From Gonapodya sp. JEL0774 (Eukaryota), in NCBI GenBank assembly GCA_027604505.1, contig JADIIX010000006.1, forward strand, positions 248,001 to 308,043: a stretch of 60,043 nucleotides of DNA, given 5' to 3'. A program made the position numbers and the translations under genes. This document shows, one piece after another, positions 4,084 through 57,299 of this stretch. Under the pieces are notes generated by a model that searched no databases, had not been told where the DNA came from, and saw only the letters and a list, made by a program, of their open reading frames with translations. The first letter of the stretch is position 1, and each line of letters starts with the position of its first letter.

Positions 4084-6019
4084 ATGTTGACAGAATCAAA
4101 TTCCAAATCTCTCCAGTCAACTCCCCCTGACGTTCTCCTCCATATCGGCTCGAAGAACCCGTCCGCAGGTGTTGATCTGGCCCCAATCAACTCGGTTCCA
4201 GTTTCAGATTCGCAATTACCCTCAATGTACTATTCTGCACCTGTAGTCCAAAGGAAGGAGTTGCGTCCGGAATCACCAGGAGGGCGCCGTGTGGTATTCA
4301 CGGAGCCCGAAACTGTTCGGAATGGAGATGATACTCCAGGAAACGAGCCTGAAGGAATCAACAATTCCAATTGGGAGAGGCGATTATCGATCGCCAAGAC
4401 AGAGAATGGAACAAGCAGGGAAGGTGACACTGGACGGGGAGGATCAGAGAATGGGGGCGAGGAGCGTGACACATTTGTGACACAGCGGGCGGGGACCCTG
4501 TAAGCCATCTCTCTGCTCCTTTTGCGTGGACACTGTTGTAAGGGGCTCTTAACACTAGTATCGAGCTTCCTCGGCCCTCTGCCACCATTAATTCCCATTT
4601 GGCAATGGAACTGGTGCGAGCACAGCACCCGTCGATCTTTGAAGGGCGAAGAACTCTGCAGTCCACTCTTCTTTTGGCCAAAAAGCGTGAAATGCTCGAA
4701 GTGCAGCAGCAATTGGATGAGAAGCGTGCGGAGTTCAATCATCGAATGCAAGATTGCCGGGAAAAGCAGGAGGAGCTGATGGCTAAGCAAAAGCAAATAA
4801 GAGAGCGCGTCTCGAAATTTGAAAAGTTCTTGGTTGAAAACGACGCGAAGAGACAGAGGGCGCTGGTGAAAGCACAACAGGAGCGTAAGACAAGAGAGTT
4901 GAAGGACGTTGAGCTCGCTCAATTGAAAGAGAGGCTCCTTCAGGAATCGAAAAGTGCCGAACAAATACGGAAGCTCCTGGGTAGTTCGCTCATTGGTATT
5001 TTTGGGGGCGTTTGTAAACTTATACCTTGACTCTCTAGAGAAGTACCGACCCTACGAGGAATACCTTCAGCTCGTTGTTTCCACCCTTCCTCTCAATTAC
5101 CTCGACACTCCTGAACCTCAAATTAGTGATTTCTTGGCCCGCCATCGTACCCTTCTCGAGACCTCCTTAGATTTGGAGCGTCAGCTTTCTCGATCCCAGG
5201 ATGAAATCGAACGGGAGCAAACGCGACTCAGCTATCTCCTCAAAGAAAAGAGTGACACGATATTGGTATACAATAGCACTCTCGGCACGTTACAGAAGCG
5301 ACTCGATGCAATGAAGGGAGAAAATGCGAGTGTGGAGGCGAAAGTCAATGACCGCGACAGGGCAGCGAAACATAAAGTGAGGTTGTGTGGTTCGTCGATC
5401 AGGCCACATAATGTGAGCTCTTCCCACCTCGACAGCAACGCCTTCTCAGCGAGGTGAAACTTGCAATCAACAATATCCATGAGCGGTTGCAGTCGAGGCC
5501 TCCCGCTAGCGGGATGGTTCGATTCTCCACAGGCCCAGCGAACCCGGGCCACCCGATTGGTCACTCACCATCTTCTCAATTGCAAGGAGCAGATATGTGC
5601 CGAGGAAACCAGTCGACAATGAAGTCCCGACCATTTGTCGCAACCGACCTTGTAGTTGGAGTTGCACCAGGCGATCACGGATTGGAGATCATGCAGCCAT
5701 CAAGACCGCATACTCAGACTGGCTTAGGACCACCTATGACGTCACAGGGTAACATTAACGGTAAAAGGCGAAAGGTAGCGCTCCCTGTTGCCCCTCGTGC
5801 CCGCACTGCTCCAACAGGGGCATCCACGGACGATTCATTAAAAGCATTGCTGGAGAAGTTAACGGCGATTCGGGACAGGTTAATTGACTTACAAAGTGAG
5901 TGGTGTGCCTAATGCGACGGTGGCGTCCTTGGCGGCTAACGTGCAATTGGCCTCGTCTATGCGTAGTTATTGTTAAGACATTAGAAGAAGAGAGTTCGTC
6001 AGATGTAGAGCCTTCGTAA
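4084..6019 (+). CDS. Cilia/flagella-associated coiled-coil protein, CFAP73/CCDC42 (DUF4200) family
   Basis: QSTLLLAKKREMLEVQQQLDEKRAEF...KFEKFLVENDAKRQRA...LEKYRPYEEYL matches the DUF4200 pattern. Four GT-AG introns join the ORF pieces. Confidence 0.8.
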
Positions 6020-7395: not shown

Positions 7396-9284
7396 TCATG
7401 TGTGCATCTGTTCGCTCTGAATGTTGTCACGGTGTGGACCATCCTCCACCAATGCTCTCTCCCGGGCTTGCCGTGCTTCTTCGCGCCAGTCAATGCGCAA
7501 TATTGCAGCAACCATGACGGAAGCCACGCCATAAAGCGCCAAGCAAAGCCCTAACCACAGTCCTGTCACACCCAATCGTGTTTTGAACGCCAGATATGCA
7601 CCCAGAGGAATCCCGAACAGATAATCTGTGGACAGACATTTGAAGCTTCGAACCGACAACCGCACTTACAAAATGCACACACGTACACAAGACCATGTTC
7701 GCCTCGGCTCCAACTTCCTGCCATCCCACGCCTCTCACAACACCACCAGCCCACATGACCACACCGTCTGCAAGTTGAAGAGCAGCACCAGCGATTAATA
7801 GCTGTGACACCATATCGGCGGTCTGCGAATCATCAGTAAAAAATGGTCCCCATACCGGTCGAACGGCGATGAGAAACACCATATTGATGAGCTCTAAAGG
7901 GATACAAAGGAAGAAGGAGGAGTCTGCAGCGGTGTATGACACGATCAGTTAGGTGAGGTGTTGCTAATGTGAACAACACGCACATGCCACCACACGCGCT
8001 TGCACCCAACGGTTTTCACCCAGCAGGTTACCGATTCTGTTACCTGACGCTATTGTGGTCCCGTAAACAATCTGATAGGTGCATGTGAGAGTCAACAGTG
8101 CTATGGTCTGCGCAGCAAGTGCGGACTCTCCGAAAACGCCAGCGAGAAGGGCTATTATCTACGACGGGAATAGGAGGTTTTTAAACCTTACCGAATAACG
8201 ACAGTGGTACGATACTCACCTCATACGCCCAATACTCGCCGCAAAGCAGAAAAACTCCGGGTATTGCCAGACGCACCATGGGCCACCAATTGTCAAGTGA
8301 ACGCTTGTCCAAGCCTAGAAATGAGTACATACGCCGTATGAATCACGACATGCACAAGACATACTGCCGCCAGGATTCCCACACAAAACATACCTCCCCA
8401 TCGGCCGAACCCTTTTGTCATCGATATGTAAACTCCCAGAATCAGAAATTGAAGAGTGTATGTAATACACAACGAAACTGCGGCTCCGTCAAATCCGATC
8501 GCCGTGTCATTTTGCTGTATCAGGAAATAAGCCGTAAACAAATGGACTGGGACAGTAACCAGTTGCACGTAGAACGGAACACGCATGTAACCCATTGCCT
8601 GGCAGTACTTTTTCAAACATTCGAACCAGAGGACCGGGAGTAGACCAGGCAAAAGAAAAATACAAAACCGGCCAGCCAGTCGTGAAACTTCCGGGTCCTG
8701 ACCCAACAACAAAAGGACTTTCTCGACGTGGAACCAAAAAAATCCGAGTGGAGCTGATATGAAAACCATCAAAAGCATGCCTCGTTGGAGGATCACTCCA
8801 GTCACAAATGGGTCCAAACTCTCTGCGTCTGACGCAGTCACTGCTTGTGAAAGTAACGTATCGAGGGACAATGCCGCTCCGAAACCGACATATACTCCGG
8901 TGCAATTAGCGACCATAACTCCCAAAGCTAGCCCCGCGAGATAGGTTGTGGATAAATGTCCCACAAAATAAGCGTTGGAGGATGGAACTAAAATTTGCAT
9001 CAAGTACCCAAGAGACACGGGTGTCCCCCTGAGACCAGAGACTCGTTTAACATTTGAAAAAGTAGTGAAGCATGGCATCTTTCATACTCTTTGACGAGCC
9101 CCCAGGTTTCTTCCCATCCCGATTTTTGCAATGAAGACCACAGATCGCTGTCTAATTTGGAGCGCGGAAGGCAAACCGAGTCTTCCCCATTTACAGCAAC
9201 CTGTGCCTGCGGAAGAAGCGGATCAGATTCGCTCGACATCGTGATGGGTTCCCTCGGAAGAAGCGGATCAGATTCACTCGACAT
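7396..9284 (-). CDS. MATE family multidrug/toxin efflux transporter, multi-exon
   Basis: FVGHLSTTYLAGLALG, ALSLDTLLSQA, LLLLGQDPEVSRLAG, CGEYWAYE, RIGNLLG, GVVRGVGWQ, LGVTGLWLG, IDWREEA. Confidence 0.92.
9210..9284 (-). repeat. Tandem duplication of the first 10 codons of the MATE gene
   Basis: cggaagaagcggatcagattc(g/a)ctcgacat occurs at 9210-9239 and 9255-9284, one mismatch, period 45 nt. It encodes MSSESDPLLP twice. Confidence 0.9.
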
Positions 9285-11156: not shown

Positions 11157-13015
11157 TCAGACGGAGTCCTTCGTTGCTAGATTTTTGTGAAGAAATTCCA
11201 CAATTCGATCATAAAGCTCAGGTGTCAGTGACTTGTAGTACTTAACCTGCAAGTGTTTGGAGGAAATCATTTGCAATACTTGGTCAATAAAGTGGGTCAC
11301 TCTCTGCTTGCATAGCCACTCAAGTACCTTGTTGTCTAGTCCCCCTAGCACGTTCAACAATGCCTGAGTAAATTGATTACCTTCGGATTCTACAACATGT
11401 CGAAGCAAATGCTGAAGCACGTGTTGATAATATATGGGAACGAGACTGTGTGAAGGTAGCACTTGACAAAGATTGTTTCTCACCTGGTTCGATTTCACGC
11501 CAAACGCCACGGCTTTTGTTCGTGGCAGTCGAATAAGCGTTTGCCGCTCAGTGCGATAGTAAACTTGGTCTCCGGTTTTGTCCTGAGATTGATGGACAAG
11601 CTCATCTCCACGATATGCCGGAGAAGTCGCGTGACTTTGATGATCCTTTCGCCACAATCGACAATCAGTCGTCAGAATCCAATTAAAGCGGTTAATCGGC
11701 TTTCCTTCTCGAAGTCCGGATGAGAAGAACCTGAGTGAAGTATGTACGATGAGACGAAATGAAAACTGGGGGCACGAGGCAATCTCCTCAGATTGCTCGC
11801 GCACTTGTTCATACTCTTTCGCAGCACTGAGTCATAGCTTGGTACCGGGTTGTGGACAAAGGACATAATGCGGCCTATGCGATCCCTTTGAAGGAAACCT
11901 TGGAAACAAAATGTGCTGTTTAATCATCATCACAACATTGCATTTATGACATACTTGTCTCACCTGGAAAGGTGAAAATGTTGACTGCGGACACGAAACG
12001 GTACTGTGCAACTCCGCCGTCCAAATCGGGATCGGGCTCTTCGGTACCGGGCATGACGATTATCCAGTCCGCCTGGAGGCGTCAGTGATGAAATGAAAAC
12101 GGAACACAGCTTGAAAGTCGCGACGTAGACGTCATCATTCTCACTTGTGTCAAGAGGCCCAGGACGTATAGAGGCCTCTCCCAATCCTTGCCCCCTGGTC
12201 CGAGATCCCATTCATCTCCACGCAGCTTGTTAGCAAACGTCCTTCGCCCATCTGGACTTGTGTTCCACATAAAGGACGTCGGAAAACGCTTGCCAAGGTA
12301 ATCAATTACGACTTCTAGCATTTCGCGGTTGGCGTCCGCCAGTTTGTCAAGGTCAACGAGCTTGTCGTAGGGAGCAGGCGGTTGGTGGCAAATAACTTCT
12401 TCATACGCCTTTGATATCGCATCTTTTCGAATGTCCATGTCAGCTTGATACTTTGTGATGGTGATTGGTTACCAGTTGGCGACGGTGATGGTGTGACCCG
12501 TGACTTTCACACAAAACGTACATGTGAGTCTATTTCAATAATTTCATCAACTGGACATATGGAGAGGTCTGAAAAGCGGGGATGGGGAATACACGGGTAT
12601 TGAATCAGGAACTTCCCATCACACGATCCACGGATTCTCCAGAGAAGTTATGGACTCACTCACTCATCTTTTGACGATGTGGTATTGGAGTACCAAGGAC
12701 TCCTTGCTTGTTTCTGTTGTGAGATGAATGAGGTACATGTCCATCAATGACTATCGCGGAAATATCAGCTCACATCGCTGGAGGAGGAAACTCTCCCACA
12801 AAAGGCTCAACCTTCACTGACGGCATTATCAACGATGCTCCGTCGACTGCCACTTCTCTGTTTTCCTGATCCTCATTCGAAAGCTCGTGTTGACGAACAA
12901 GGGAGTGTAGGATATCAATCACCTCGGGCGATCGGAACGCGATCGACACTGCGATCACAGCGCTGGCGGCGATAGCGGAAGAAACTAGCAGTGAATGCGA
13001 GAGTTGCTGGGACAT
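11157..13015 (-). CDS. DUF3445 / heme-dependent oxidative N-demethylase alpha-subunit-like protein, multi-exon
   Basis: YLGKRFPTSF, FVHNPVPSY, KPINRFNW and YRTERQTLIRLPRTKAVAFGVK are DUF3445 hallmarks. N-terminal hydrophobic anchor. Confidence 0.8.
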
Positions 13016-15534: not shown

Positions 15535-18091
15535 TCACCCATAGTCCTTCATCATCTCCCTCTCCTCCAGCCACCCCACTGCACTACACCCTGCGGGCCC
15601 TCCCACTCCATACTGCCCCATTCCAGATCGCCCCCTCGGACACCTGAAGCCAGCGAACCTCGGACATGCCCGCATAACGAGCCAGCACAAGTCGACGCAT
15701 GGGAGCAACTCGGTGTAAGGTAAATACGCACCAGTATCGTTCAAGGCGCCAGCGAGGATGGGGAGTGCTTTGGGTGGCGGTGGAGCAGATGCAGCATTCT
15801 CGGGGAAAGGGGTGTCGTGTACCTGGAGCACACGACCTGCCGATACGCCCCGCGCACTGTGCGGTGGGTCGCTTCGAGGGTCGCGTGCGATGAGCGAATT
15901 GGGAACAATCGTTGCAAAGGATGGGTTGGATGGTGAGGGTGCGCATCGAGGAAAGAGCGATGCACACAGCCAGGCACGATAGGCCGCCATGCAGTCAGGG
16001 GGTTCATAAAGAGGAGAGTAACTATGTTGGAAGAACCACGTATGTGGGGAGCAGGTAACGACATGTAAGCATCAAATAGTCAAATGGCAAAGGTCAAAAA
16101 TTACCAAAAGTTTCACTTCCCGGGCCCCGGCCCCCGCGGGGGGCCGGGGGGGCGGCGGGGGCGCCGCGGCGGGGGGGGCGGGGGAACGCCGGGCGCGGGG
16201 GCCGGGGGAACGGCGGGCGGGCAGGAGNNNNNNNNNNCCCCCCCCCCCCCCCTCCCCACTCGCTAGATCATAGAAATACCCACGTGACATTCCCAAACCC
16301 TTTAATTACCCATCCCCACTTATCACCCATATTTCCTGCCACTCGGTCTACCGCCTCTGCAACATTAAATCTCTCAACGTCTGAATTGAGCGACCACGTG
16401 GGGAATGGCGTAGAGTACGCGATTTGAGAGCAGTAGGAGAGAGAATTTGGAGGAATCAGGCGGCAGGAAGAGGGGTCTCAAGTACAGAGGTCGAGGTGGG
16501 ATCGTCGGAAGACATAAAACAGAGAGGTGTCAGCAACGAATGGGGAGGATCACCACTGGCAATCACATCTTTCTCCAGGGCGATTCGATGATCCGCATCA
16601 CCAATTCACAACAGTGGTGAAAGGCGACTCCCCAGAACCAGTGTTGACGTCTCACAAAAACACCCACCGCTAAACTACCACACACTTGGTGACTCTCATT
16701 TTGACGCCTTCAACTGGCAACCACCAAGATGCTCCAATCAACTCACCGTTCTCCTCTCTCGTCACCGCCACCACTGGTTGCGACACCACCTGCCCCCCCG
16801 CGATCATATCGTCAACAACCCAGAGAATTACAATGGCCCCGAATTTGGAAGGTCGGGATAGTGTGACGATGATGTTGCAGTAGGTCGGGGTGGATGACCG
16901 GTAATGGGAGAGGACTTGAGCCGCGCCGGCGAGACCGGCAGATGTACGGTTGGTGCGGAGAACGAGGGCGGTGAAGGTTGTATTGCCATAGGACGTGAAG
17001 TTGGGAGTTCCAGTTGTACCAGATGGTTGGCTTAGCCCGGAGACAACACCAGAAACACTGACATCAGTTCCATTGACCTTCTTTGTGTCGGAGACGGGCA
17101 CAAGAAGGGACGACGTGGAGATGGCACATGGTGTGGCGAGGAGGACATGCAAAGGGATCTGCTGATCCGAAGAAGCACGGTGGGTGACAGAGACGTAATA
17201 CAATCGGCGGGAAACGAGAAAAGGATTCGGTGGGTCGAGAATAGCGAGGAAAGAGGCGGAGGAGATGTCGGCGTCGTCGAGGAATGCTGTAGAGAATGGT
17301 AGATTCACCAAGCGTCCACTCGAGTCTTCTCCGCCATCTGTGGTGGTCGTGTATGTGATGATACGATATGACCAAAATTGAGAGGAAGAAAGAGAAGAAG
17401 GCGTAACGACGGTCACATAGAGGATTCGTCGTCCGAGGTCGTCTTTCGGGATAGAAGCGGCCGGTATTGCGAAACGTGCGACACCAGGGGCGAGTCCCGA
17501 GCCAAATGAAACAACAGTGGATGCATTAGGTGGTGAGTAAGGCACTGGTGGTACGAATGTAACATAGAGGGATGGGAAAGCTGAGGCGGGGGGAACGGCG
17601 CAGAGGGAGACCGAGAGAGTCACGTTTCGGACCACTGAAGCTGTGGAAACGCTGCCTGGAGATACCGTGACCTGCCTGCGAGCAAGAAATGATAGAGGGT
17701 GAAGTTTGCTTAAGAGGGTGTTAAACACGGATCGAGGTGCCGGCGGTGGTGGTGGAGGAGGGAAAGGTGTGAAGCGTCCGAGACCGGATTCGTGTTCATC
17801 CTTTACGTCGCCTTCTTTCTCGCCTTTCACTCCATTTTGGCGTTTCTCGATTCGCTCTCTCCCAATTTCCTGTGCCTCAGTGAGTTTAAACATGCCAGGC
17901 TGCGTTGGTGAGTCTCCCACCACGTAGACAAAAGTCTGTGCTACCGTCCCAGTTTGAGAAACTGCCAACCACTGTGTATCGTTCAACTGAATGCTGGTAT
18001 TTCCTGTTGCGTTGAAGGTTCGCGTTGGAGGAGCTTGACTCAACGCTGGCAGTGTCCAAACTACCACTACCATCAGAACACGCCAAGACAT
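15535..18091 (-). CDS. MID1: Mid1-like calcium channel accessory subunit, multi-exon, spans an assembly gap
   Basis: Signal-peptide-like MSWRVLMVVVVWTLPALSQA, many NxS/T sites, CRLIPPNSLSYCSQIAYSTP, CMAAYRAWLCASLFPRC, YTELLPCVDLCWLVMRACP..GFRCP. The start could lie further upstream, up to 18223. Confidence 0.85.
16228..16237. other. Assembly gap with low-quality poly-G/poly-C flanks
   Basis: Run of 10 N between extremely G-rich and poly-C sequence. Confidence 0.95.
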
Positions 18092-33590: not shown

Positions 33591-35590
33591 ATGTCGTCGA
33601 ACGCAGATCCTCTCGATCCGTTCAATGTTCTCGATATACTGAGGAAAACGCTCCCACGATCGGAGTCCCTACAACGTGAATCCGCCCTGTCATCCGAGTC
33701 AAGCTCATCGGCTCCCTCAACTCCCGATGTTCTGTTTCGAAGCCAAGCCGATGTAGTAACGGGAACTATTCATGCATCCATGCTGGCACTGGGTTTCAGA
33801 TTGGTCGCGCTTGGTGAAGAGGGACCTGTCGATGAGTCTATGGGCGATGGCGGGGTCCCCACTGGTAGGTAATCAACCATTCATCCTCCATTTCACTTGT
33901 CACTGGGAAAGTGAAAGAGAATGACGAAACCGGACGAAAATTATCTCCCATGATTGATCTCTATATTTTTGCTTGGGACTACCACCTTTTATCCGGTGTA
34001 CAAGTCCGACCTCTCCTTCCGCAATGGAACGCATCGCAGGATGCGTACGCCTTTCGCTATAAACATGAGCGCTCTGCGTTCACTTTTTTGATCAAGATTC
34101 TAAAAATGGCCAGCAAGCTCATTATCAATGGTCTTGCTCCTGAGGTGAGCTAGATGATTAAATCTCCGCTTTGGTGAAAAGCCAAGTCTTAAGATGGATG
34201 GATTTTGGTTTGAAGTCTGGAGAGGCCAAAGAGATGAGGAGATGCGTTTGCTAGTTGGGGACCCATGGCGTGAGATGTTGCACCATTCAAACTGTGTCAC
34301 ATGAACTCCTGTTTCCCACTAAAACACACACACTAGGACAACAAACTCCGCACTCTCACTATCGCCCTCCCAGACTTCATGTCCCCTTTTGGCAAGTACC
34401 CCTTCACCACTTCGGACGAGGCACGCATCCTCTTCGAACCGGAACCGCCAGCGAGTCCTTACTTCCGCCTCTTCAAGTCTTACGACAAGCTCCACGATTT
34501 GATATCCGGTTTTAAGGTCGACGTAATAATCCGAATCGCGCCAAACTTGCAGAAGGAGGGTTATGAGGAGGGAGTGAGGTGGGGCACCCATTTCAGACAA
34601 ACCATTTCGTGGTCTGGGAGAAACTATCAGAACATCAGCCACGTCATAACTCGAATTGAATACTTCTCTTGTAGCAACCCAACTCGTACTTCCGCTCCAT
34701 CTTCATCGTCAACACGGCCACCATCAGTCCAACCTCTTCCACGCCCTAATCCTCCGCAACCCCCTCGGCCCACACCATACGGCGACTTCCCTGCCAATCC
34801 CCTTGGCCCCGGCCGAAGTCCCTTCGCCATCGGCGACAGAGATTTGGATCCATTCTCTGCCGCGCCAGGTGTTGTGGGCATCGGTCCTTACTTCGGTGGG
34901 GGTGCCGGAGGTATTGGCCCATTTGGTGGTGGTGTTGGTGGTGGAGGCGGGCGAGGTCCATTCAGAGGCGGTGGAGGAGGCATGTATGTGGATCCCGCAC
35001 ATCCAATATTTGGCCCAAGAGGGGGTGGGGGAGGAGGATTCGGTGGCGGATGGGGTGAGGGCATACCATCTGGCCCTGGTGGGGAACGATTACCGCCCGG
35101 AGCTGTTCCTCCAGGTGCAAGATTTGATCCCATTATGCCTGGGATATCTGGTCCTGGATTTGGACCAAGACCGGGGAGGATGGGCCCAGGTTCAGGTGGG
35201 GGTGGGATTGGGTTGCCGCCGGGATCTGGAAGTCTGCCAGGGCAGCCGGGATGGGGTCCGGGAAGGAGACTGGGTGGAGATGAAGTTGAGATGCCTAGAT
35301 CGTGAGTAATTTTTCGCGTTCGCACGGCTGATGAGGGATCGTTGGATTGAACACCACCATATGCGCTCTGAAAGGGGAGAACCAGATCCAGACATTGACC
35401 TTCCCCCTCAAGGTGATGACGTGGGCGTGCCACCACACCAAACTCTAAGTGAGAGGTCACCACCAGGGTATGAGGTTGGTGATTGATGTTTGCTGCCTGC
35501 ACGTCCGATCAATTCAATGCTTTCCTACACATTCTCAATTGGCTTGGGTCCCGCCGTTGTCGTACCACGTTTTAGGACATGTTCATGTGA
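33591..35590 (+). CDS. PSMF1: PI31 proteasome regulator, multi-exon
   Basis: IHASMLALGFRL, LPQWN...YAFRYKH, IGDRDLDP, GGGMYV, PPGAVPPGARFDPI, GEPDPD, C-terminal DMFM* (HbYX-like). Confidence 0.9.
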
Positions 35591-35739: not shown

Positions 35740-38700
35740 TCATAGCAACTCGATGGAGGCCTCCAACCGCTCAGTCTCACGGGCCAGCTTCAATCTCTCA
35801 TGCACAGACTTAAGTCTCCTGAAGAAAAATTTACAATCGCCGTTGGCGCACAACACCTCCCTCATCCAAGAACCCTGGCATTGCCAACATTGGCTTTGCA
35901 CACGGCATTGTTCAGCATCAAGACTCCACACCTGTCCCAGTTTAGCCTCATATATCCTGGGCAGATCCACGACGTGCTTGACGCACACCGCGTGATCGAC
36001 ATGGATCTTCACACGGCATACCATACAGGAAGCGGACTCTGTAGACTTGCCAAAAAAGTTCGTGATTGTGCCAGGTTTGTGCTTCGATACCACGGGAACT
36101 TGCGAGGAGCGGGAGACCTTAGTGTGTGGACCATAAAAGAGATTCGAGACTTCCGATGGTGAAATAAACAGCTCGAACAGACGTTTGAGCTGATTCTCGA
36201 GTTGGTGATGGAGGTCTTTTGCATGAGCAAGAGAAGGATGTTCTTGAAATTCAAAATGAAAAGACTAGAACCCAACATTACCTACAGTATTCGTAGTCCA
36301 AAGGAATTTGATTTTGAATGGCATAAACTGGATCTTCACTCTTCTCGTGCCCCTTTGCCCCAACGTCTCCCTGAATATAGACAAACGAAATCCGTTCTCC
36401 GTCTTCAAACACACGCCCAGGCTCCCGCTTGCGAATTCGCTCTGCCAACTCCACATGTACTTGTTTCGTCTTGTAACTCTCAGTCTCGGTTCCAAGCCAC
36501 AAGCCTTTCGTAATAATAAACTGAAGACGCAGTGAAGTATTAGAAGAAACTCCGCAACTTTGCAAACATCTGCGCCGTCTTGCACCACACCAACCTCGCT
36601 GACATCAAAACTACCCTCGAGCATGCTTTGAATACTGCTTTTCACGTAGGTTTTTGCCTTTTCGATTGAAGACGCTCTCTCCAGGTCGGAAATCTGCTGA
36701 GCTCCATCTACTTGATCATTGTTCTTTCCAGAAGGACATATTATTTGAAGAACCGTGGTCATCATTCGAGCTAACAACGGGCACGAATCTCGGCGCTGTG
36801 ATTCCACACCCTGTGGCAGCACACGTCAGAGCTTTGAGTTTCAGTTTAGATCCACGAGGAGGAATACCTTCGCGTCCAATCCGATGGACCGGCCGTCTGG
36901 GGACCATTCCAGCCCCGCATAACGTTTTCTGTTCACCATTATAAACGGAAAATAAACTTTTTGAAACTCTAGCGCGATTGGATACTTGAAAATAGAAGAA
37001 CAATGATCGGCAATCAGCTTGCTGAATCGAATGGCGTCGTTGACCGATGTGTTCGGAAACTTCAGAAATACCGAGTCTGTGTCGCCATAGATGACCTGGG
37101 TATCAGTGGGAAAACCCTGACTCCTACGGAACTTCGTTTCGATTTCGACCTTTGTTCGTGCAAGCATTTGGGCTAGTGTGGTCCAAGTGGCGAGAAGATG
37201 ATATGAGCAGACCCTCAGCAGAGTGTTCGCGTCTTGAGTGACCCACTTACCACCGAAGAGAATGGTGGACTCCGCGATGGGCAAACACTGTAGTTTGGAA
37301 TCCTTCGCGCCAGTGAAGCCATATATAGCATTTGCGCTAACTTTTAGTGCAGTCTGGCGACCTGACCGGAACAAGGACCGTGGAGAATAATATCAGGAAA
37401 CTCGTAGGACAAAACTTAACCACCAACCGTTTAGCACAAGCTTCATCGTAGGGTCAGACGTTGCTAGCATTTGCTTTTTAACTTTTCTGAAATATGGGGG
37501 GGACATGATAAACATGAGCATTCCTGACTCTGAGAATTGTCTTTCGCAATGAACTCAAACTTGCTTTCTTTCCTCCAAAAAGGCTTCGAGTATAAGTGGA
37601 ACGATACCCTTCTTCACTGAAGAGTTAACAAAGTAACACTCTTGCGGGCCGAGTCCAGCCTCCCATTCACTACAGTCCATGAGATGGCGATCCTCTGGTT
37701 TCAACAAAGTATCGTAGGAAAGATTCTGGGATATAATAATAGAAGGATCTGAGATTTGAGAAGTCATGAAGTGAGAAATTGAGATGACGTTGAACGCATC
37801 GTGACACCCACAAAGTGAGCGGAAGTCAAGTACCGCACAGGGGTCGGTCGTATTCAGTCCCGTCTCCGGCATGCTCATTCGGGAGAACCCCTCAATGATC
37901 AATTGATGTTGAAAATTTTGACTTTAAAAACTCACTAATTAAGTGGTCCTTCGGTCATGCCACTGTCATTGCGATCCTTGGCACTTGGTATTACGATGTC
38001 CCTGGCCCGACAATAACGGCAGAGCTGACTCCAAAATCGTGCCATCTGTCCTCTCTAAAAGGATATGGGCACCAGGCGATCAGAATTAGTGGGTCCTGGC
38101 GTAATACAATGAGGGAAGAGTTTACCTGAAAACACTCCGCAATGTTGAGACCAGTCACTCGTGCCATCTCCAAGTAACCCACTAGGTGGGCGCCTTTTCT
38201 CCCTATATCCACAGCTAGTACTACTTCCCTCGCAACGTAATCGAAGAACCGTTTTCGAGATACTTCGTTGCCTGAGAACAGTCGGCCGAGTTGTGTCGGA
38301 GTGAGCGTTTCCTTAGTCCGCCCCAGATAACTTTGAACTGCCTCAGCAAACGAATACGAGCGGAGCCGCTCGTCGCGCTCTACTATCTGCCTGAGGTCCA
38401 GGAGAAGGCGACCAGGCACAACCATTTCCGTGAAAGCACGATTATTCGTTCCTGTACGAATAATAGTAATAAAATAAGGTAGAGACTTGACCCTCAAACA
38501 CAACACGAGATTTTACCGGCCATTCTCCTCTGTGCTCTCACCCAACTAGCTCCGTATATCTGGTGCTTCCCAATTTTGACATCAACCGCGGCGAGACGGC
38601 CCAGTTTCCCCCAACCATTAACATTCAACTCCTTTGCCCTGTTGATGATCAGCGCAAAGCTTTCGGCGGCATCCCAGCCACTCAGCACATCCGGATCATA

Positions 38701-40743
38701 CAAGAGCAGCACGTCTTTGAGACCAATAAGCATCTCCCGCTCACTTCCATACTCGAATACAGTATAGAACTGAGCCACTGTTGACGGAATATGACGAGGT
38801 GGTAATTGTGGGCTCGAAAGGGCGGGAGCGTTTTCACCGCGGTGAGTGAAAACAACGGTAGGGTCCATTTTGGTAGGAGAACTTGATGAATTCGAAGAGC
38901 TTTCGACATGTCGTGTGGTGAAAACAATAGGAATCGCGACAATGCGTTTTTGCGACCCATTTGAGAAGAGGGTCGTCGGATGCGCAACTGGGCGATAGCT
39001 ATTGTGATTGGCCCCGACCGAAGCTGAAGAAGAACTGACAATCCGCGATGTAGGACTAGGTGATAGCGGCGACATACCACGTCGATCCAGTCGTTGGAAC
39101 GAAGATTTTTGCTTCCTTGGCGCCCAGGGAGTATCAGCTGAGACCGCCGATCGGGTTGGTGGAGTCCTGGGCGAATCACGTCCCAAACTTGATGTGACGT
39201 GCATTCCCGTGCGGTTTGTTCTCTCTGTGTCGTTTGGGGTGCTATCAACTTCAGGATCCATTTTCCTCTCGTTCACACTCGAAACACCTTCCGACAGGGC
39301 GACGATCGCACACATTCGCCACCCCACCATGCCCCCCCATTTGCCCTCGTCCTCCTCCGTTGTGTGTGCTTGGATGTCAGACCATCGAATCGCCACTGAA
39401 TTCGAGCACCGACTCCACCGAGATGAGAGAACACGGTACGCACGACGAGGGAGAGTGCAAAACGAGCCGCCAGAGAGGCGGGCAGCGACAAGGAAACGAA
39501 GGACGGGGGTCATGTTCGACTCATAAACGGTCTGCGGAGATGCGAAAAAAGACAATTGGAAGCCTGACAAAACATCAACGATGGCATAACACACCGCGTC
39601 ATACAATTTCCCGCTGGTCCACAAAGCTGTAAATGCTTCACCACCCGCTCCTTGCTTCTCACTCGATTCCAGGGCCTTGGTCGCCTTCCCAACATCGGTA
39701 TGCTTGTCAAACTCAATTCGGACGAAATTCTCATACCGGTCACCAGCACCAGGACGGTAGTACATTAGAGGTTTACGTTTGCAAAGCTCTGCTGTGCGAG
39801 GGCATACACCTGAGGCGGCACGGAGAGCGTACAGGAAGGAGGGTATATCCGTGGCCGTGAAAATGGGAGCCACGGGGAAGTAAATGAATGGATGGAAATC
39901 TTCAACCTGGGCGCAACGAGTCCAATAGGATGAGGAGAGGGAAAGCAAGCAGATCTCGTCCCAATGGGCAAGAGGTTTGAACGTTTGTCACATGTTCGAA
40001 GAACTCACCCAAACGCAGACGCTACGCCCATCCAGTGTACTCCCTACAATTCTGATTGGTGGGGCGTTTCCCTTGAGTGGCGGCAATGCTCCATGTTTTG
40101 CCTCGCGAGAAGCGTCTTCACATTCCAGAATTTGGATATGTATGTCATCAGTTTCAGAATTCAACGTAAATGTGGGACGAGGAAGAAGCGGAAACACGGA
40201 GGCGAAGTAAGAGGAGTGATTGCCCTGTGCAACTGCGATGAAGTCGGATGCGGCGACAGGATGAAGTTCTCCGCATGGCTCCCCATCATCACTGCTCTCT
40301 ACCAGGGGGGGATCATCGTCACTCAGATATGGTCGGAGTTCGCCATTACCAGTTTCATCCACAGTTACGTTCTCGTGCAATTGGTGATCCTCAGTGTCTG
40401 TTTCGCTGTTATCAATTCTGTCCCGTTCGACATTCTGCAACGAAATCAAGCCGGTATTGTCGTCATCATCGAGAATTTTCTCAGAAGAATTAATGTTCAA
40501 TCGCGGACGCAATGTCCCATTCGGCGGAGAGGAAGCGACCATGCCATTCGACTTTCCCTCCCGCGAGCTTGGTTTTCTTCGCTTGAATTCTTGAAAGCCA
40601 TAGAATTTGGATTTTGATCCATCACCATCGCCGAGTCCCACAGACTGATTTGGCAATTTCATCACATAAGGGAAACCACAAGAAGGCCACGAGTTCACCA
40701 TTATAACGAGTTTCATACAAAAATTGAGATCGCAAACAGTCAC
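35740..40743 (-). CDS. Family B DNA polymerase, divergent Pol delta (POL3/POLD1)-like catalytic subunit with degenerate exonuclease domain, multi-exon
   Basis: DFRSL/YPSIII (spliced), RQTALKVSANAIYGFTGA, VIYGDTDSVF, NRKRYAG, KGVESQRRDSC, KQVHVELAERIRKR, KSEDPVY, CysA CMVC..VCVKH, CysB CWQC..CANGDC. The start is uncertain. Confidence 0.9.
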
Positions 40744-41046: not shown

Positions 41047-43801
41047 CTAGCAGCGAAACAATAAGTATTTCGTTCTTTCTATATCCCGGTGTACCCTTCC
41101 CGGGGTTTCAAGACGCCGGACTTGCCATACGGCTTGGCGGAACTGTTGGCGGCTTGGGAAGAAAGTCTTTCCACTCCCCTTCTCCTGAGTTTGATCTCCT
41201 TCGTCTTTTCCTCTCCTTCTCTCTATTTCGATCCCTGTCCCTGTCCCTGTCCCAAGCTCTCTCTCGCGACTCGCCACGCGAACGCGACCTCGAGCGAGAC
41301 CTGGATCTGGATGTCGCCCTCCGCCTCTTTGTGCGCCGAGGAGATGATGAGCGGGATCGAGGCGAGAGAGAGCGCGAGCGGGAATGAGAAAGCGAAGAAA
41401 AAGAGTGATTGTGGTGTTTTAAGGGTGCGGTGGGAGCAGGCAGAGCGGAATCTCGGGAAGGCGTCGTGAGCGATGAGGGTGAGTCGGTTGAGGGTGTCAG
41501 GTGGACTTTTGATTGGAGGCAAAGACGGTCATCGTCAGACATGCTAAACAAAGAGGATCCATTGTGCTTTTGGATTTCAGAGGACGCACGGGGGACCAGA
41601 ATACGAGCGGCATTCGTGGAATTTTTGGGAGGAATCACATCACATTTGTGCACTCTAAAGAATTGCATCAGAGCCCTAGACCGGCTTACCTTAGCGACTG
41701 TGATCACACGCCCTGCCCACTGCCCCATATTTAGTGTTTCAACGGCCCGATCTCGCTCCTCGACAGTTTCAAACACAACTAGCCTGTGCGAGAGGACCAC
41801 AAGTGAATCAGTGAATTCGCAAAGAGAGAATATCATTCTGCGGAATAGTTTGTGGCAGCCACCTACCCCCGCCCATTGCGATCAATGGCCCGCCACAGCA
41901 CCGTGCCCACGAGTGAAAACAATTCAGCGAGTTCCTGTTAATAAGGCATCGTAAACCAAATGAAAGTACTGACGGTATGGCGAACGATTCCCCGCGGACA
42001 ACACAGGTTATAGTTCCGGCAAACCACATTCCGCAGTCGGCATCTCCTGTGAAGGAATTGTCAGCGATAACTCACATGAACTCCTTTCTCTGGAGGGACA
42101 TTCCGCACTAAAACTGCCGTCGGCAACACCTCGCCGGAACCGTTCGCTTTGACAGCAATTCCGGAAGCAGCAATGTCCGTTAGATTCCGCTCTATGGAAA
42201 TATCCATATCATCAATGAGATGTGGCGGAGTATGGGAAGAAGACTTGATGGGAAGGCAAAGTGGTTGGATGTTATGGGAAATGTTAGACTATTTTTAGTA
42301 AAGTTTGTCATGAACGGGTCTGAATCGCACCTCCATGGATGCCTCCACCCGGCTTCCACGCCACGAACCACCGTGCAAAAAATAGACACATGCCACGGCG
42401 GACTCGAGTGATGAGAACCGTGCGGTCCTGTGTGTTAGAGAATGCCCCACGAAGCCATTATGATACATTAACAGACTGCAAAAGCCCCCTATCACCTAGC
42501 TCACCCTTTTCCCCCGGCATCAACCTTCACGCTCTCCACTTCTCCGATAAGTTTGAGTAACGAGGTTAAATCGGAATCACTGACGTCGCGTGGCAAGCCT
42601 TCCAAAATGACATCCTGACCCTTTGATATCGCCACCTGGTCTCTCACTTCCAATTCTCTCGTCTTCTTGAACAAATTTCCGGGGGCTGATACCACCTTGC
42701 CTTGCGAACCCCGAGACGACGCGAAACTCTCTGTTTCACCCAGACCTCGAGGTACAGCATTGGGCGGTATGCCACTTTGAGTGCTTGCAGACATCGGTAC
42801 AGCGGCAGATGAAGGGGGGGGCGGTGGAGAGGATAGTGATACAGGCCGTGATTCGGTGCGATACATGTCGTAGCCAGATCGGTTGGACCATTCACGATCT
42901 CGGACGCGGTCTCGTTCTCGGTCACGGTCCCGTTCGCGGCGTGAAGCGTAGTTTCGCAAGCGGTCCCGAGACGTGGAGCGAGAGCGGGATCGCGGCCGGG
43001 TAACCGATGACCGGCGGTGACGGTCAACAAAGAGAGGGTCACGGTCCCGGCGTTCGTCCCACTTGTCCGTACGTCTGGACGCGGCAGGGTAGTTCGGAAT
43101 ATAATGAGTGAAATGGCTACGGTCACGGTCACTCCCGCGGTCGGAGCGGTTGGATTCCTGGGGATGATCATCACGACGGTATGCTTGCGATGAAGATCCG
43201 GACTCGTCGATGACAAAGCGGGCGGAAGAGTCGAAAATGAATCCAGGTTTCGCGTAGTCGCATGTAATGTTATTGTTGAGGCGAATTTGTTCGATGGCGA
43301 GGGTTGCAGCGTTAACACCGTCTGGACCTCCGAATTCCTTGAGATGGCAGTAAAAACGAAATGTTGATGAATAAGAGGAGACAAAAAAACTTGAGCATTG
43401 CGGATTAATCGAACCATGGACCCTCCCAAATGGGGATTTCAATCTTAGCAAGAGGAGAACAACCCGTGCAACAGAGGGCAGTCTCTCTCGAGAGTTCAGA
43501 TGCACCGAAAAATCCACTAGACCATGCTGTGGTACTCACCACCCAGGCGAAATTTTGTTTCATCTGATATTGCCTGACTGTCCCGTACTTCTCGCACTGC
43601 AGAGATCATATTGCAAATGAGCTCTTTGCCGCCAGTACTGAGGAACCTTGTAGCTACCAGATGTATGAGATCTTCCAGGTTGTACTTAAGTGAGAACTTG
43701 GCTGTTCGAAAGTTGGACATGAGTCCGATGCGTTTGGACCAAGGAGGGATTCTTGATTCGGGAAGCTGCATGCTTACTGAAAAACACCACGTTCCATGCA
43801 T
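41047..43801 (-). CDS. RRM-containing SR/RD-rich RNA-binding protein, multi-exon
   Basis: RRM-like pieces (VILEGLPRDVSDSDL..GEVESVKV; LVVFETVEERDRAVETLN...GRVITVAK; AATLAIEQIRLNNNITCDYA) with two RS/RD/RE dipeptide tracts. Ends are approximate. Confidence 0.7.
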
Positions 43802-55245: not shown

Positions 55246-57299
55246 TTAGCCCAAGTGCTCAGACCGGAACCAAGGTTCGTTCCCTTTATATTCTGATGCA
55301 GGGCGCTTGTAAGGGATGTAAGGAGGTTCTTCATCATCGTAGAGGGGAACTACGACGCCGAGCTGGTGTCAAAGATGGGGATCGGAAATCAGCAGCGGGT
55401 CGGCACTTCGTCATCCTCCTACTGCAGCCTTTGTCCAAACCCACCTCGTAATTGTTCACGCGGACTTCCCGTTGCCCAGAGGCTTTAGATTTGACTACCG
55501 TGCCCCAAGCTGATTGGGAGCAATTATGGGAACTGAGGCGTGGTGTGTTAAGCATAACGTTCGAGTCCCATTTCGACATGATATCCATACCCACCCGTAG
55601 TAAACAAACCCTCTTACTCTCCCTTTGGCTGCTACTCTAGATGACTCTTGTGACGTCCCTGAGGCCTTTTCTTGTGGTGCAACCTTCCGCACTTCCTGTT
55701 CCACCACGACAACCTTTGCATGTGACACTGCGCCGCTCCTCGTGCTCACACTGTCCCTCATCACAGTCTTCGGAAAGCTTTCCGCATTGTACCATTTCCG
55801 TTCCAAACATATTGCTTCACATCCTTCGGGATACGACCCATTTCGTTTTGCGGAACTAATGGTGGAGAGTGTAGGAAAGAGAACACGAAAGAGAGGTGGT
55901 AAAGGGGAGCGCGAAGTAGCTGTAGGGAGTGTGCCCGAGCACGCGGAGTGAAAGAGATGGAGCCATGGAATCTTGAGAGCACCAAGGGACGACGTCTAGG
56001 AAATGTCAACCTGTCAATGTGGCAGAGTGAAGTCGGAAAGGCTTGGAGCATCGTAGAGCAGACCTGATATTCTACACTGTATCCGGCCTTCGGTGAAAAT
56101 CCTATCTTCTTCGCAACCGCGGCGAGCCGTCCGACTCCGCTGAATTCGATCCCATGGGAGTGAGATGGAATACTTCCTACAAGCTCGGCTTTTGCAGAGG
56201 TGAAATCGTACTCCCGTACCACGTCAACGAATTTGTGGACAGTGAGAACCTTCAAGTACTTGTGGAGATAGGTACCAAACGACGGGAGGGCTTCGTAGTT
56301 GGTGGACGGGTCGCGAGGAGGGAAGTCTTGTGCGAACACAACCTGGAATGGATCCACGAGGCGATTCAGAGCAAGTAAAGGTCATGCAGAGTGGGACGCT
56401 CACATTATCAACCGTCGACCAGTCCCGGTGGGTCAAATTTGCAGATGTAATCACAACACGAAGACAGTCCTGGAACACGAGTAGCATGAGCTTGACATGC
56501 ATGGTTCCAAAATTCTCAGGTACAGGAGGATAGAGGAATATTCGTCGAGGTGAAGCACCGACAATCCGAGGCTGATGAGTCGAAAATTATGTTCAGCTGT
56601 GGGGAATCTTGACCCGCAGAGTGTCCCTCACTTTATTGGGTTCGTGGACCACAAAGTAGGCCTCTGTCTCCATCTCCAACTTGTCAGCAATCCAATCGAC
56701 ACCCTTGAAACCGTGACCCCAATCGAATGAAGAAAACAATCCCTTTCGAAGCCTTTTCTATGAGTGTGAACAGGACATAGTTGAGGTAGAAAGTCTAGAA
56801 GGACAGAGCGCCACCTCTCACTGAGTCAATGAGCAAATCCAACCCAAGGTCACAAGAGTTGCATATGGTTGCCTCCCAAAACCGGGCGGTTGCACCAGTT
56901 ACAGAGGGTTTTAATCTCTTTGAATGGGATTCACATTCATCCGTTTCTTCTAACGCTCTTTTTCGAGTTCGTGCGATTCTTTCCTGCTCCAACATTGCTC
57001 GGTTTATTAAGAACGAACTGGTGGTTGTCAACTTGGCAGCCGACGAGAAAAGCGCATCTGGATTCAAATCTGATGAATCACGAGTCCCAGGCGAAGAACT
57101 AGAGCTGGCCTTTTTAAGCCGTGAAAGGTAAGAGATCTCTTCATATGATTCTTGGATCAGATGAGCTTTATACCTGAGTTCCATGATCCGCTATACTCAG
57201 TTCAATCGCTCTCTTGAGATCATCGTCGTCATCTGGATCGCTTCGCTTCGAGTCTTGAAGACTGAGCTCGATTGCAAGACGCAGTTCGTCGTCGTCCAT
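55246..57299 (-). CDS. TDP1: Tyrosyl-DNA phosphodiesterase 1 (PLD superfamily) with N-terminal UIM-like motifs, multi-exon
   Basis: GTMHVKLMLL..LRVVITSANL..DW, LVGSIP, SHAKVV, SHNCSQSAWG, VNNYE, terminal EPWF. The N-terminus is DDELRLAIELSL / DDLKRAIELSI. Confidence 0.9.

What the first reader, a model, noticed from the sequence alone, without database searches (positions are those of the whole stretch)
35740..40743. DNA polymerase delta paralog with intact polymerase but apparently dead proofreading domain
Seen: polymerase motifs A, B and C are intact (DFRSLYPS, KVSANAIYG, YGDTDS). The thumb (KQVHVELAERIRKR, KSEDPVY) and CysB (CWQC..CANGDC) are delta-type rather than REV3-type. All exonuclease motifs are eroded: ExoI reads WRMCAIVALSE (~39290-39320) instead of LRxLSFDIE, ExoII reads DPDVLSGWDAAESF (~38655-38696) instead of DPDxxxGYNxxxFD, and ExoIII reads DYVAREVVL (~38215-38243) instead of YCLKDAxL. 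The last CysA cysteine is His. Established: canonical POL3/POLD1 is highly conserved and needs these acidic residues for proofreading. Inference: this is a second, non-proofreading delta-derived polymerase, possibly error-prone or translesion, that may still bind Pol31 through CysB.
Basis: partly seen in the sequence, partly recalled or inferred. Interest (0 to 1): 0.75.

Follow-up and report, generated by a model that had tools for sequence, protein, structure and literature searches.

The report
Fifth eukaryotic B-family DNA polymerase
This intact fungal gene encodes a DNA polymerase delta look-alike that has lost its proofreading residues; it belongs to an old, apparently unnamed polymerase family also found in green algae, ferns and other protists, and it likely works as a non-proofreading repair polymerase beside the normal replicative enzyme.

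Summary
A 12-intron model gives an unbroken 1375-aa frame, 62.8% identical to a Gonapodya prolifera protein. Polymerase residues, a PCNA-binding (PIP-like) motif and CysB are kept; the ExoI and ExoII acids are lost (ExoIII Asp is Glu). The gene belongs to a distinct family: 9 named fungi (chytrids, a monoblepharid, a blastoclad, Bifiguratus, Saitoella, Savitreella), green algae, ferns, a lycophyte, Platysulcus and unnamed rows. None of 20 members keeps the four exonuclease acids; 20 of 20 canonical deltas do. Members share a basic helical insert at the beta-hairpin tip and a thumb tryptophan. Trees give one clade (SH-aLRT 99-100) apart from POL3 and REV3. A fungus-only duplication is rejected (p 1e-7); a sister position to REV3 is not (p 0.195). 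REV3 is present in Gonapodya and Spizellomyces; a canonical POL3 there is inferred only. Ten paper searches found no description. Best reading: an ancient fifth eukaryotic B-family polymerase, likely non-proofreading and PCNA/Pol31-bound, used in repair synthesis. Expression and activity are untested.

The parts
35740..40716 (-). Whole gene, 13 coding exons / 12 introns, 1375 aa; start codon uncertain (ATG 40716 used; ATG 40854 possible)
   Evidence: 62.8% identity over 1251 columns to P0001
40009..40716 (-). Exon 1: unconserved acidic N-terminal stretch, then the start of the N-terminal domain
39595..39906 (-). Exon 2, N-terminal domain
38517..39531 (-). Exon 3: end of N-terminal domain, ExoI, low-complexity insert, ExoII, start of hairpin insert
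39289..39321 (-). Degenerate ExoI: no acid at either metal-ligand position (Val417/Leu419 read without gaps; Gly422/Ser424 in the MAFFT alignment)
38656..38697 (-). Degenerate ExoII: Asp627 at the Asn position, one residue shorter, Ser631 at the catalytic Asp position
38441..38562 (-). Family signature: about 10 extra residues at the tip of the exonuclease beta-hairpin (aa 664-682, across intron 3); basic, with conserved Tyr666, Trp670, Met677, Asn682; two short helices in the model of relative P0008
38126..38451 (-). Exon 4, holds ExoIII (Tyr750 at 38239 kept; Glu754 at 38227 in place of Asp)
37936..38054 (-). Exon 5
37812..37873 (-). Exon 6: motif A catalytic Asp843 (37827); the steric-gate Tyr848 codon is split by intron 6
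37565..37748 (-). Exon 7, followed by a GC-AG intron (37564-37487)
37428..37486 (-). Exon 8, fingers
37251..37361 (-). Exon 9: motif B, Lys935 (37344) and Tyr942 (37323)
36868..37172 (-). Exon 10: motif C, Asp996 (37083) and Asp998 (37077)
36595..36810 (-). Exon 11, thumb
36286..36520 (-). Exon 12, thumb, with family-specific Trp1147 (36499-36497)
35740..36215 (-). Exon 13, C-terminal domain and stop
36052..36069 (-). PIP-like PCNA-binding motif (Ile1268, Phe1271, Phe1272) at the place of the human p125 PIP-box 1001-1005
35974..36027 (-). CysA: three Cys plus His1298
35833..35889 (-). CysB: all four Cys kept (predicted Fe-S cluster and B-subunit binding site)

Best explanation
The gene is an intact member of an ancient, separate family of delta-type B-family DNA polymerases that has lost its proofreading residues, and it likely acts as a PCNA-bound, non-proofreading polymerase for repair synthesis (gap filling and extension from damaged or mismatched primer ends) beside canonical Pol delta and Pol zeta. 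Shown: an intact frame; both catalytic Asp, the steric-gate Tyr and the fingers Lys and Tyr kept; exonuclease acids lost across the family; a PIP-like motif and CysB kept; one clade outside POL3. Inferred steps: (1) it polymerises DNA in the fungal branch; (2) PCNA recruits it through the PIP-like motif; (3) it borrows the Pol31 B-subunit through CysB, as REV3 does (recalled), which fits genomes that list five PolB catalytic subunits but only three B-subunits; (4) the dead exonuclease domain is kept as a scaffold, and the basic helical insert on its beta-hairpin grips the template or displaced strand instead of feeding the primer to an editing site. The enzyme would then extend ends at which proofreading delta idles. 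Odds: distinct ancient family about 0.9; active non-proofreading polymerase in fungi about 0.8; this repair role about 0.5.
For: Intact 1375-aa model. Conservation against Gonapodya: 78% palm/fingers, 71% thumb, 71% in the back half of the dead exonuclease domain, 81% (25 of 31) in the hairpin insert, 40% in the low-complexity part. Exonuclease acids (orangutan POLD1 numbering D316/E318/D402/D515): complete in 0 of 20 family rows and 20 of 20 canonical rows chosen for the tree, and in 123 of 132 non-family rows of the wider set. In yeast, loss of the ExoI pair or of D407 gives a 25-50-fold mutator (PMC3188538, passages). Both catalytic Asp, the steric-gate Tyr and the motif B Lys and Tyr are kept in 20 of 20 family rows. 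A hydrophobic and an aromatic residue at the p125 PIP-box positions in 20 of 20 rows, and the full Q-x-x-h-x-x-a-a consensus in 7 of 9 green rows (box defined in PMC7048817). CysB complete in 16 of 20 rows. Family monophyly: 99 and 100; its fungal and green halves each score 100, with the green half in organismal order. Grouping the fungal members with fungal POL3 is rejected, p-AU 1.1e-7. Signature Tyr in 51 of 52, Trp in 47 of 52, thumb Trp in 39 of 41 covered family rows (the 60 rows include fragments and near-duplicates). REV3-type rows for Gonapodya and Spizellomyces punctatus stand beside family-type rows in Table S2 of PMC7544198 (typed by eye from the first 400 residues). PolB = 5 and B-subunit = 3 for S. 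punctatus and Chlorella variabilis in Table S1 of PMC12680538.
Against: No activity, expression or knockout data. A canonical POL3 was not shown directly in this genome or in any carrier; the count of 5 is not specific, since Arabidopsis and Danio also list 5. Nothing in the active site points to lesion bypass: the Leu and Tyr of motif A are as in delta. In 9 of 9 green rows the first Asp of motif C is Gln or His and the basic motif after it is altered, so that branch may be weak or inactive. CysB is eroded in 3 of 20 rows (P0003, P0274, P0278) and cut off in 1. A family+REV3 clade is not rejected (p-AU 0.195). All trees are quick or FastTree runs with long branches, no bootstrap, and REV3 from only 5 rows (4 near-identical fungal-type). 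A metagenomic member (L105) keeps two of the four exonuclease acids, so some members may keep partial nuclease chemistry.
Confidence: 0.5

Rival explanations
1. A specialised recombination or meiotic polymerase: same anatomy, but its job is D-loop extension and strand-displacement synthesis rather than damage bypass. Loss of the exonuclease removes idling, and the basic hairpin insert handles the displaced strand.
For: Delta-like active site with an unchanged fidelity Leu and steric gate; PIP-like motif closer to consensus than in POL3; the family's main innovation is at the hairpin. That exonuclease-dead delta displaces strands more strongly is recalled, not tested here.
Against: No expression data. 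Patchy retention does not obviously follow sexual versus asexual lifestyles (not tested).
Confidence: 0.25
2. A mainly non-catalytic scaffold (like the dead half of Pol epsilon) that binds DNA, PCNA and Pol31 and regulates access of other polymerases. Polymerase activity is residual, and already lost in the green branch.
For: Green rows lose the first Asp of motif C (9 of 9) and alter the following basic motif; the dead exonuclease domain and insert are as conserved as the thumb.
Against: All 10 fungal rows and Platysulcus keep every polymerase residue; all 20 rows keep both metal-binding Asp; palm and fingers are among the best-kept regions.
Confidence: 0.12
3. An evolutionary sister or alternative of Pol zeta: family and REV3 share an exonuclease-dead ancestor, and the family is a stripped-down zeta-like extender.
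For: Family+REV3 is not rejected (p 0.195); both have an acid at the ExoII Asn position (Asp in 18 and Glu in 4 of 52 family rows, Glu in 4 of 4 REV3 rows).
Against: The best tree puts the family on the delta side (96); 769 versus 395 bits; delta-type thumb and motif B; L105 keeps the ExoI and ExoII Asp, which points to an independent loss; REV3 is present alongside.
Confidence: 0.1
4. It is the organism's only Pol delta, a replicase that lost proofreading; or it is a decaying or virus-derived copy.
For: Databases label several members 'DNA polymerase delta'; no canonical POL3 was seen directly in a carrier.
Against: The family lies outside the opisthokont POL3 clade that holds animal, ascomycete and basidiomycete rows; five PolBs are listed in two carriers; intact frame, 12 spliceosomal introns and ordinary host neighbours; the best 80 viral loci are at most 31% identical.
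Confidence: 0.03

Closest known systems
DNA polymerase delta catalytic subunit (yeast Pol3, human POLD1/p125)
   Same: Domain order and fold (TM about 0.8; Z 33.2, rmsd 3.5 over 962 residues, for relative P0008); polymerase motifs; PIP-like box; CysA and CysB.
   Different: Exonuclease acids lost; basic helical insert on the beta-hairpin; thumb Trp; only 46% identity in palm/fingers to orangutan POLD1, against 68% for a yeast POL3; separate clade.
Pol zeta catalytic subunit REV3
   Same: Dead exonuclease with an acid at the ExoII Asn position; CysB; active polymerase site.
   Different: About half the profile score (395 vs 769 bits); delta-type motif B and thumb; not inside the REV3 clade; present alongside REV3 in Gonapodya and Spizellomyces.
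Pol alpha catalytic subunit
   Same: B-family polymerase with a dead exonuclease.
   Different: 208 bits; far away in the trees; delta-type C-terminal domain (Pfam zf-C4pol).
Archaeal PolB2 (Dpo2), an exonuclease-less extender
   Same: Functional analogy only: a proofreading-less B-family paralogue kept beside the replicase; the search listing of PMC8764526 calls it a translesion extender (title and abstract start only).
   Different: Unrelated subfamily; not compared by sequence here.

Membership tests
B-family DNA polymerases | Motifs A, B and C with two catalytic Asp; PolB fold | tested here: met
Pol delta catalytic subunit (POL3/POLD1 orthologues) | Four exonuclease acids in ExoI, II and III | tested here: not met
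   None of the four in canonical form in the window protein (ExoIII Glu only); 0 of 20 family rows complete vs 20 of 20 canonical
Pol delta catalytic subunit (POL3/POLD1 orthologues) | Groups with the POL3 of its own lineage | tested here: not met
   Separate clade; fungal members + fungal POL3 rejected, p 1.1e-7
Pol delta catalytic subunit (POL3/POLD1 orthologues) | C-terminal PIP-like box | tested here: met
Pol delta catalytic subunit (POL3/POLD1 orthologues) | CysA with four Cys | tested here: inconclusive
   Three Cys plus His1298; Cys3His can still bind zinc (own knowledge)
Pol delta catalytic subunit (POL3/POLD1 orthologues) | CysB with four Cys | tested here: met
Pol delta catalytic subunit (POL3/POLD1 orthologues) | Binds Pol31 and PCNA; does bulk lagging-strand synthesis | not testable with these tools
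   No Pol31 or PCNA sequence of a carrier was on hand; needs biochemistry
Pol zeta (REV3) | Inactive exonuclease | tested here: met
Pol zeta (REV3) | Falls inside the REV3 clade and has REV3-type motif B and thumb | tested here: not met
Pol zeta (REV3) | Sister to REV3 rather than to delta | tested here: inconclusive
   Best tree says delta side (96); alternative not rejected, p 0.195
Pol zeta (REV3) | Rev7-binding motif and large insert before the exonuclease domain | not tested
   No motif search was run; the window protein's long insert lies after ExoI
Nucleocytovirus PolB | Groups with viral PolBs; intron-free; viral neighbours | tested here: not met
   12 introns, host neighbours, at most 31% identity among the best 80 viral loci, separate clades

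The most novel reading that the evidence does not exclude
The last eukaryotic common ancestor had a fifth B-family DNA polymerase besides alpha, delta, epsilon and zeta: a delta paralogue without proofreading and with its own DNA-gripping hairpin insert. It shares PCNA and Pol31, survives in zoosporic and other early-branching fungi, Taphrinomycotina, green algae, ferns, lycophytes and some stramenopiles, and was lost in the model yeasts, animals and seed plants, which is why it was missed.
Probability: 0.6. Interest if true: 0.9.

Novelty: new variant of a known kind. Interest (0 to 1): 0.8.

Why it matters
Current surveys count four eukaryotic B-family polymerases (PMC7544198, PMC12198294). 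A fifth, conserved family on both sides of the eukaryotic tree would change the reconstruction of the ancestral replication and repair kit. It would add a third possible user of the Pol31 subunit, and it gives a natural experiment on what a delta-type enzyme does without proofreading. It also warns that several database entries named 'DNA polymerase delta' are not POL3, which matters for phylogenomic markers and for claims of proofreading loss. Carriers such as Ceratopteris, Chlorella, Spizellomyces and Saitoella make knockouts and biochemistry feasible (their tractability is my own knowledge).

Tried and rejected
Whole-genome search for POL3 and REV3: no genome is held; the earlier-findings index has nothing for this genome or sequence. 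Sequencing runs: none was listed, so no reads were laid and exons and expression are unchecked. dN/dS: not computed, as no coding DNA of an orthologue was on hand; region-wise protein identity was used instead. ESM Atlas: no answer in six tries. Complex prediction with Pol31 or PCNA: not run, no partner sequence on hand. A lookup of motif columns by text string was dropped; the columns were read by residue number instead. My recollection of a published 'Delta2' or 'Pol delta-II' group was not confirmed: 0 papers; 0 occurrences of 'Delta2' in the held supplement of PMC7544198; no such clade in the parts read of PMC12198294 or bioRxiv 2024.04.22.590592. Rejected: splicing artefact (motifs are inside exons and relatives agree); pseudogene (intact frame); viral origin; fungus-specific duplication. 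Not rejected: sister to REV3. The first FastTree alignment misplaces ExoI in family rows, so the L-INS-i alignment was used for the family counts.
Full report
1. The observation. The minus strand of 35740-40716 holds a spliced B-family polymerase gene. Guided by its best relative, I placed 12 introns of 57-102 nt: 11 GT-AG and one GC-AG; two acceptors are unusual. This gives an unbroken 1375-aa frame ending at TGA 35742-35740. The start is uncertain. Pfam finds the exonuclease, polymerase and C4 zinc-finger domains. Against orangutan POLD1 (P0109; residue letters printed, motif names recalled), both ExoI acids are gone, the ExoII Asp is Ser631 and the ExoIII Asp is Glu754. Asp843, Tyr848, Lys935, Tyr942, Asp996 and Asp998 are kept. 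In yeast, the ExoI double mutant and D407A are strong mutators (PMC3188538, passages), so proofreading is very likely absent.

2. Context. Neighbours are ordinary host genes: of 24 ORFs scanned, 8 hit Pfam at E 0.01, among them PI31, MatE, tyrosyl-DNA phosphodiesterase and DUF4200. The closest protein is Gonapodya prolifera M427DRAFT_399532, 62.8% identical over 1251 columns, so the source is probably a monoblepharid-like zoosporic fungus (inference). No genome is held.

3. A family, not a one-off. A search with the Rhizophlyctis relative gave 10 proteins at 521-899 bits (the self hit scored 1953), then a gap to canonical delta at 423 or less; 120 of 310 hits were listed. A profile search of 1.84 billion representatives (best 150 listed), scored against family and canonical profiles, added more members and an intermediate group. 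Look-ups named Savitreella, Borealophlyctis, Auxenochlorella, Adiantum, Chlorokybus and Platysulcus. A third search added Ceratopteris, Diphasiastrum, Klebsormidium, Chlorella vulgaris, Symbiochloris and a second Adiantum; Chlorella sp. A99 followed. Metagenome loci L081, L105 and L135 are further members (3 of 80 loci). Named fungi: Gonapodya, Rhizophlyctis, Spizellomyces, Cladochytrium, Borealophlyctis, Paraphysoderma, Bifiguratus, Saitoella, Savitreella; their phylum labels are from my own knowledge, or from Table S2 of PMC7544198 where shown. No animal, seed plant or Saccharomycotina member appeared, but many rows are unnamed and the searches are capped, so absence is not shown.

4. What defines it. 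The four exonuclease acids are complete in 0 of 20 family rows and 20 of 20 canonical rows. They are complete in 123 of 132 non-family rows of the wider set; the 9 exceptions include three dinoflagellate-type paralogues and a Pol alpha. All 20 family rows keep both metal-binding polymerase Asp, the steric-gate Tyr and the motif B Lys and Tyr. Positive signatures: about 10 extra residues at the beta-hairpin tip, with Tyr in 51 of 52, Trp in 47 of 52, Met in 50 of 52 and Asn in 53 of 54 covered rows, and a thumb Trp in 39 of 41. In non-family rows neither Trp is among the four commonest letters (the 60 family rows include fragments and near-duplicates). The insert region has 6 Lys/Arg and no acid in 27 residues in the window protein. 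An AlphaFold model of relative P0008 (pLDDT 89, pTM 0.88; its alignment included canonical deltas) places two short helices there between the hairpin strands. The fold is closest to Pol delta. The PIP-like box of human p125 (PMC7048817, passages) is matched in 20 of 20 rows. CysB is complete in 16 of 20 rows; CysA ends in His in 5 of 20. The dead domain is under constraint: 71% identity to Gonapodya in its back half and 81% in the insert, against 40% in the low-complexity part.

5. Phylogeny. FastTree on 146 rows and IQ-TREE PMSF quick searches on 56 rows and 49 rows with five REV3 ORFs all give the family as one clade (99, 99, 100). These rows were chosen from more than 330 proteins; fragments and most canonical rows were left out. 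Fungal and green halves each score 100. The green half follows organismal order, and Platysulcus and two unnamed rows join it (88-95), which fits vertical descent from an early eukaryote; transfer was not tested. A clade of fungal members plus fungal POL3 is rejected (p-AU 1.1e-7). With REV3 present, the family sits on the delta side (96), next to a separate dinoflagellate exonuclease-dead group. However, forcing family+REV3 costs only 12.4 log-likelihood units and is not rejected (p 0.195). Profile scores favour delta (769 vs 395 bits). L105 keeps the ExoI and ExoII Asp, which suggests stepwise loss within the family. Long branches are in play and there is no bootstrap.

6. Coexistence. Table S2 of PMC7544198 lists, all under the one label PolBmain, a family member, a REV3-type and an alpha-type protein for both Gonapodya and Spizellomyces punctatus (typed by eye). 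Table S1 of PMC12680538 gives 5 PolB and 3 B-subunits for S. punctatus and Chlorella variabilis. That fits alpha, delta, epsilon, zeta and this family, with a shared B-subunit, but other genomes also list 5. A canonical POL3 in a carrier is therefore inferred, not shown.

7. Mechanism. Most likely a PCNA-recruited, Pol31-partnered polymerase without editing. It would do repair synthesis and extend ends at which proofreading delta stalls, with the remodelled hairpin holding the template or displaced strand (0.5). Rivals: a recombination or strand-displacement specialist (0.25); a non-catalytic scaffold, which fits the green branch where the first Asp of motif C is Gln or His in 9 of 9 rows (0.12); a zeta sister (0.10); the sole delta, or a decaying or viral copy (0.03). 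'Error-prone' rests only on the missing proofreading.

8. Novelty. Ten full-text searches listed no paper whose title or abstract start describes this family; most listed papers were not opened. Read: PMC7544198 (passages, section 18, supplement part 1 and table rows; its Table S8 lies beyond the held text and may bear on this); PMC12198294 (parts 1-2 of 7; no hit for six genera in its supplements); bioRxiv 2024.04.22.590592 (part 1 of 4; supplements not seen); PMC12680538 (passages and table rows; two scanned PDFs unread); PMC7048817 and PMC3188538 (passages). The first two state that eukaryotes have four PolBs. Subscription papers were not searched, so a prior mention is possible (I put it near 1 in 4). 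Verdict: a real, conserved, apparently unnamed delta-type polymerase family; new variant of a known kind; interest 0.8.

Noticed in passing
P0199, P0171, P0274, P0278, P0194, P0221, P0247, P0275, P0279: The green branch of the family replaces the first Asp of motif C by Gln or His and changes the basic motif after it, yet often has a full-consensus PIP-box; it may be an altered or inactive polymerase.
   Followed up: partly
P0156, P0162, P0207: Dinoflagellates carry another delta paralogue with eroded exonuclease motifs but without the hairpin insert or thumb Trp; it forms its own clade (100), next to this family.
   Followed up: partly
L105:157-4737: Unnamed 1526-aa member with no introns that keeps the ExoI and ExoII Asp: the least eroded member seen.
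   Followed up: partly
L001:4001-6586: A giant-virus MAG contig encodes a delta-like polymerase with all exonuclease acids and both CysA and CysB, grouping beside canonical delta; either host contamination or a captured gene.
   Followed up: no
P0003: The Spizellomyces sp. member has lost 3 of 4 CysB cysteines; it may be a true loss of B-subunit binding or a gene-model error.
   Followed up: no
window 37564-37487, 37874, 36216: One GC-AG intron and two non-YAG acceptors (GAG, AAG) in the model; supported by protein homology only.
   Followed up: partly
window 34337-35302 (+): PI31 proteasome regulator gene converges tail to tail on the polymerase gene.
   Followed up: no
window 41111-41881 (-): Upstream ORF with an Arg/Ser-rich tail, resembling an SR-type protein; no Pfam hit at E 0.01.
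   Followed up: no
window 55764-56381 (-), 8296-9081 (-), 4542-5027 (+), 11160-11831 (-): Exons of tyrosyl-DNA phosphodiesterase, a MatE transporter, a DUF4200 protein and a haem-dependent N-demethylase-like protein.
   Followed up: no
window 16228-16237: Ten N bases, an assembly gap far from the gene.
   Followed up: no
P0149: Anaeramoeba intein-containing Pol delta appears to lack three exonuclease acids in the quick alignment; this may be misalignment.
   Followed up: no
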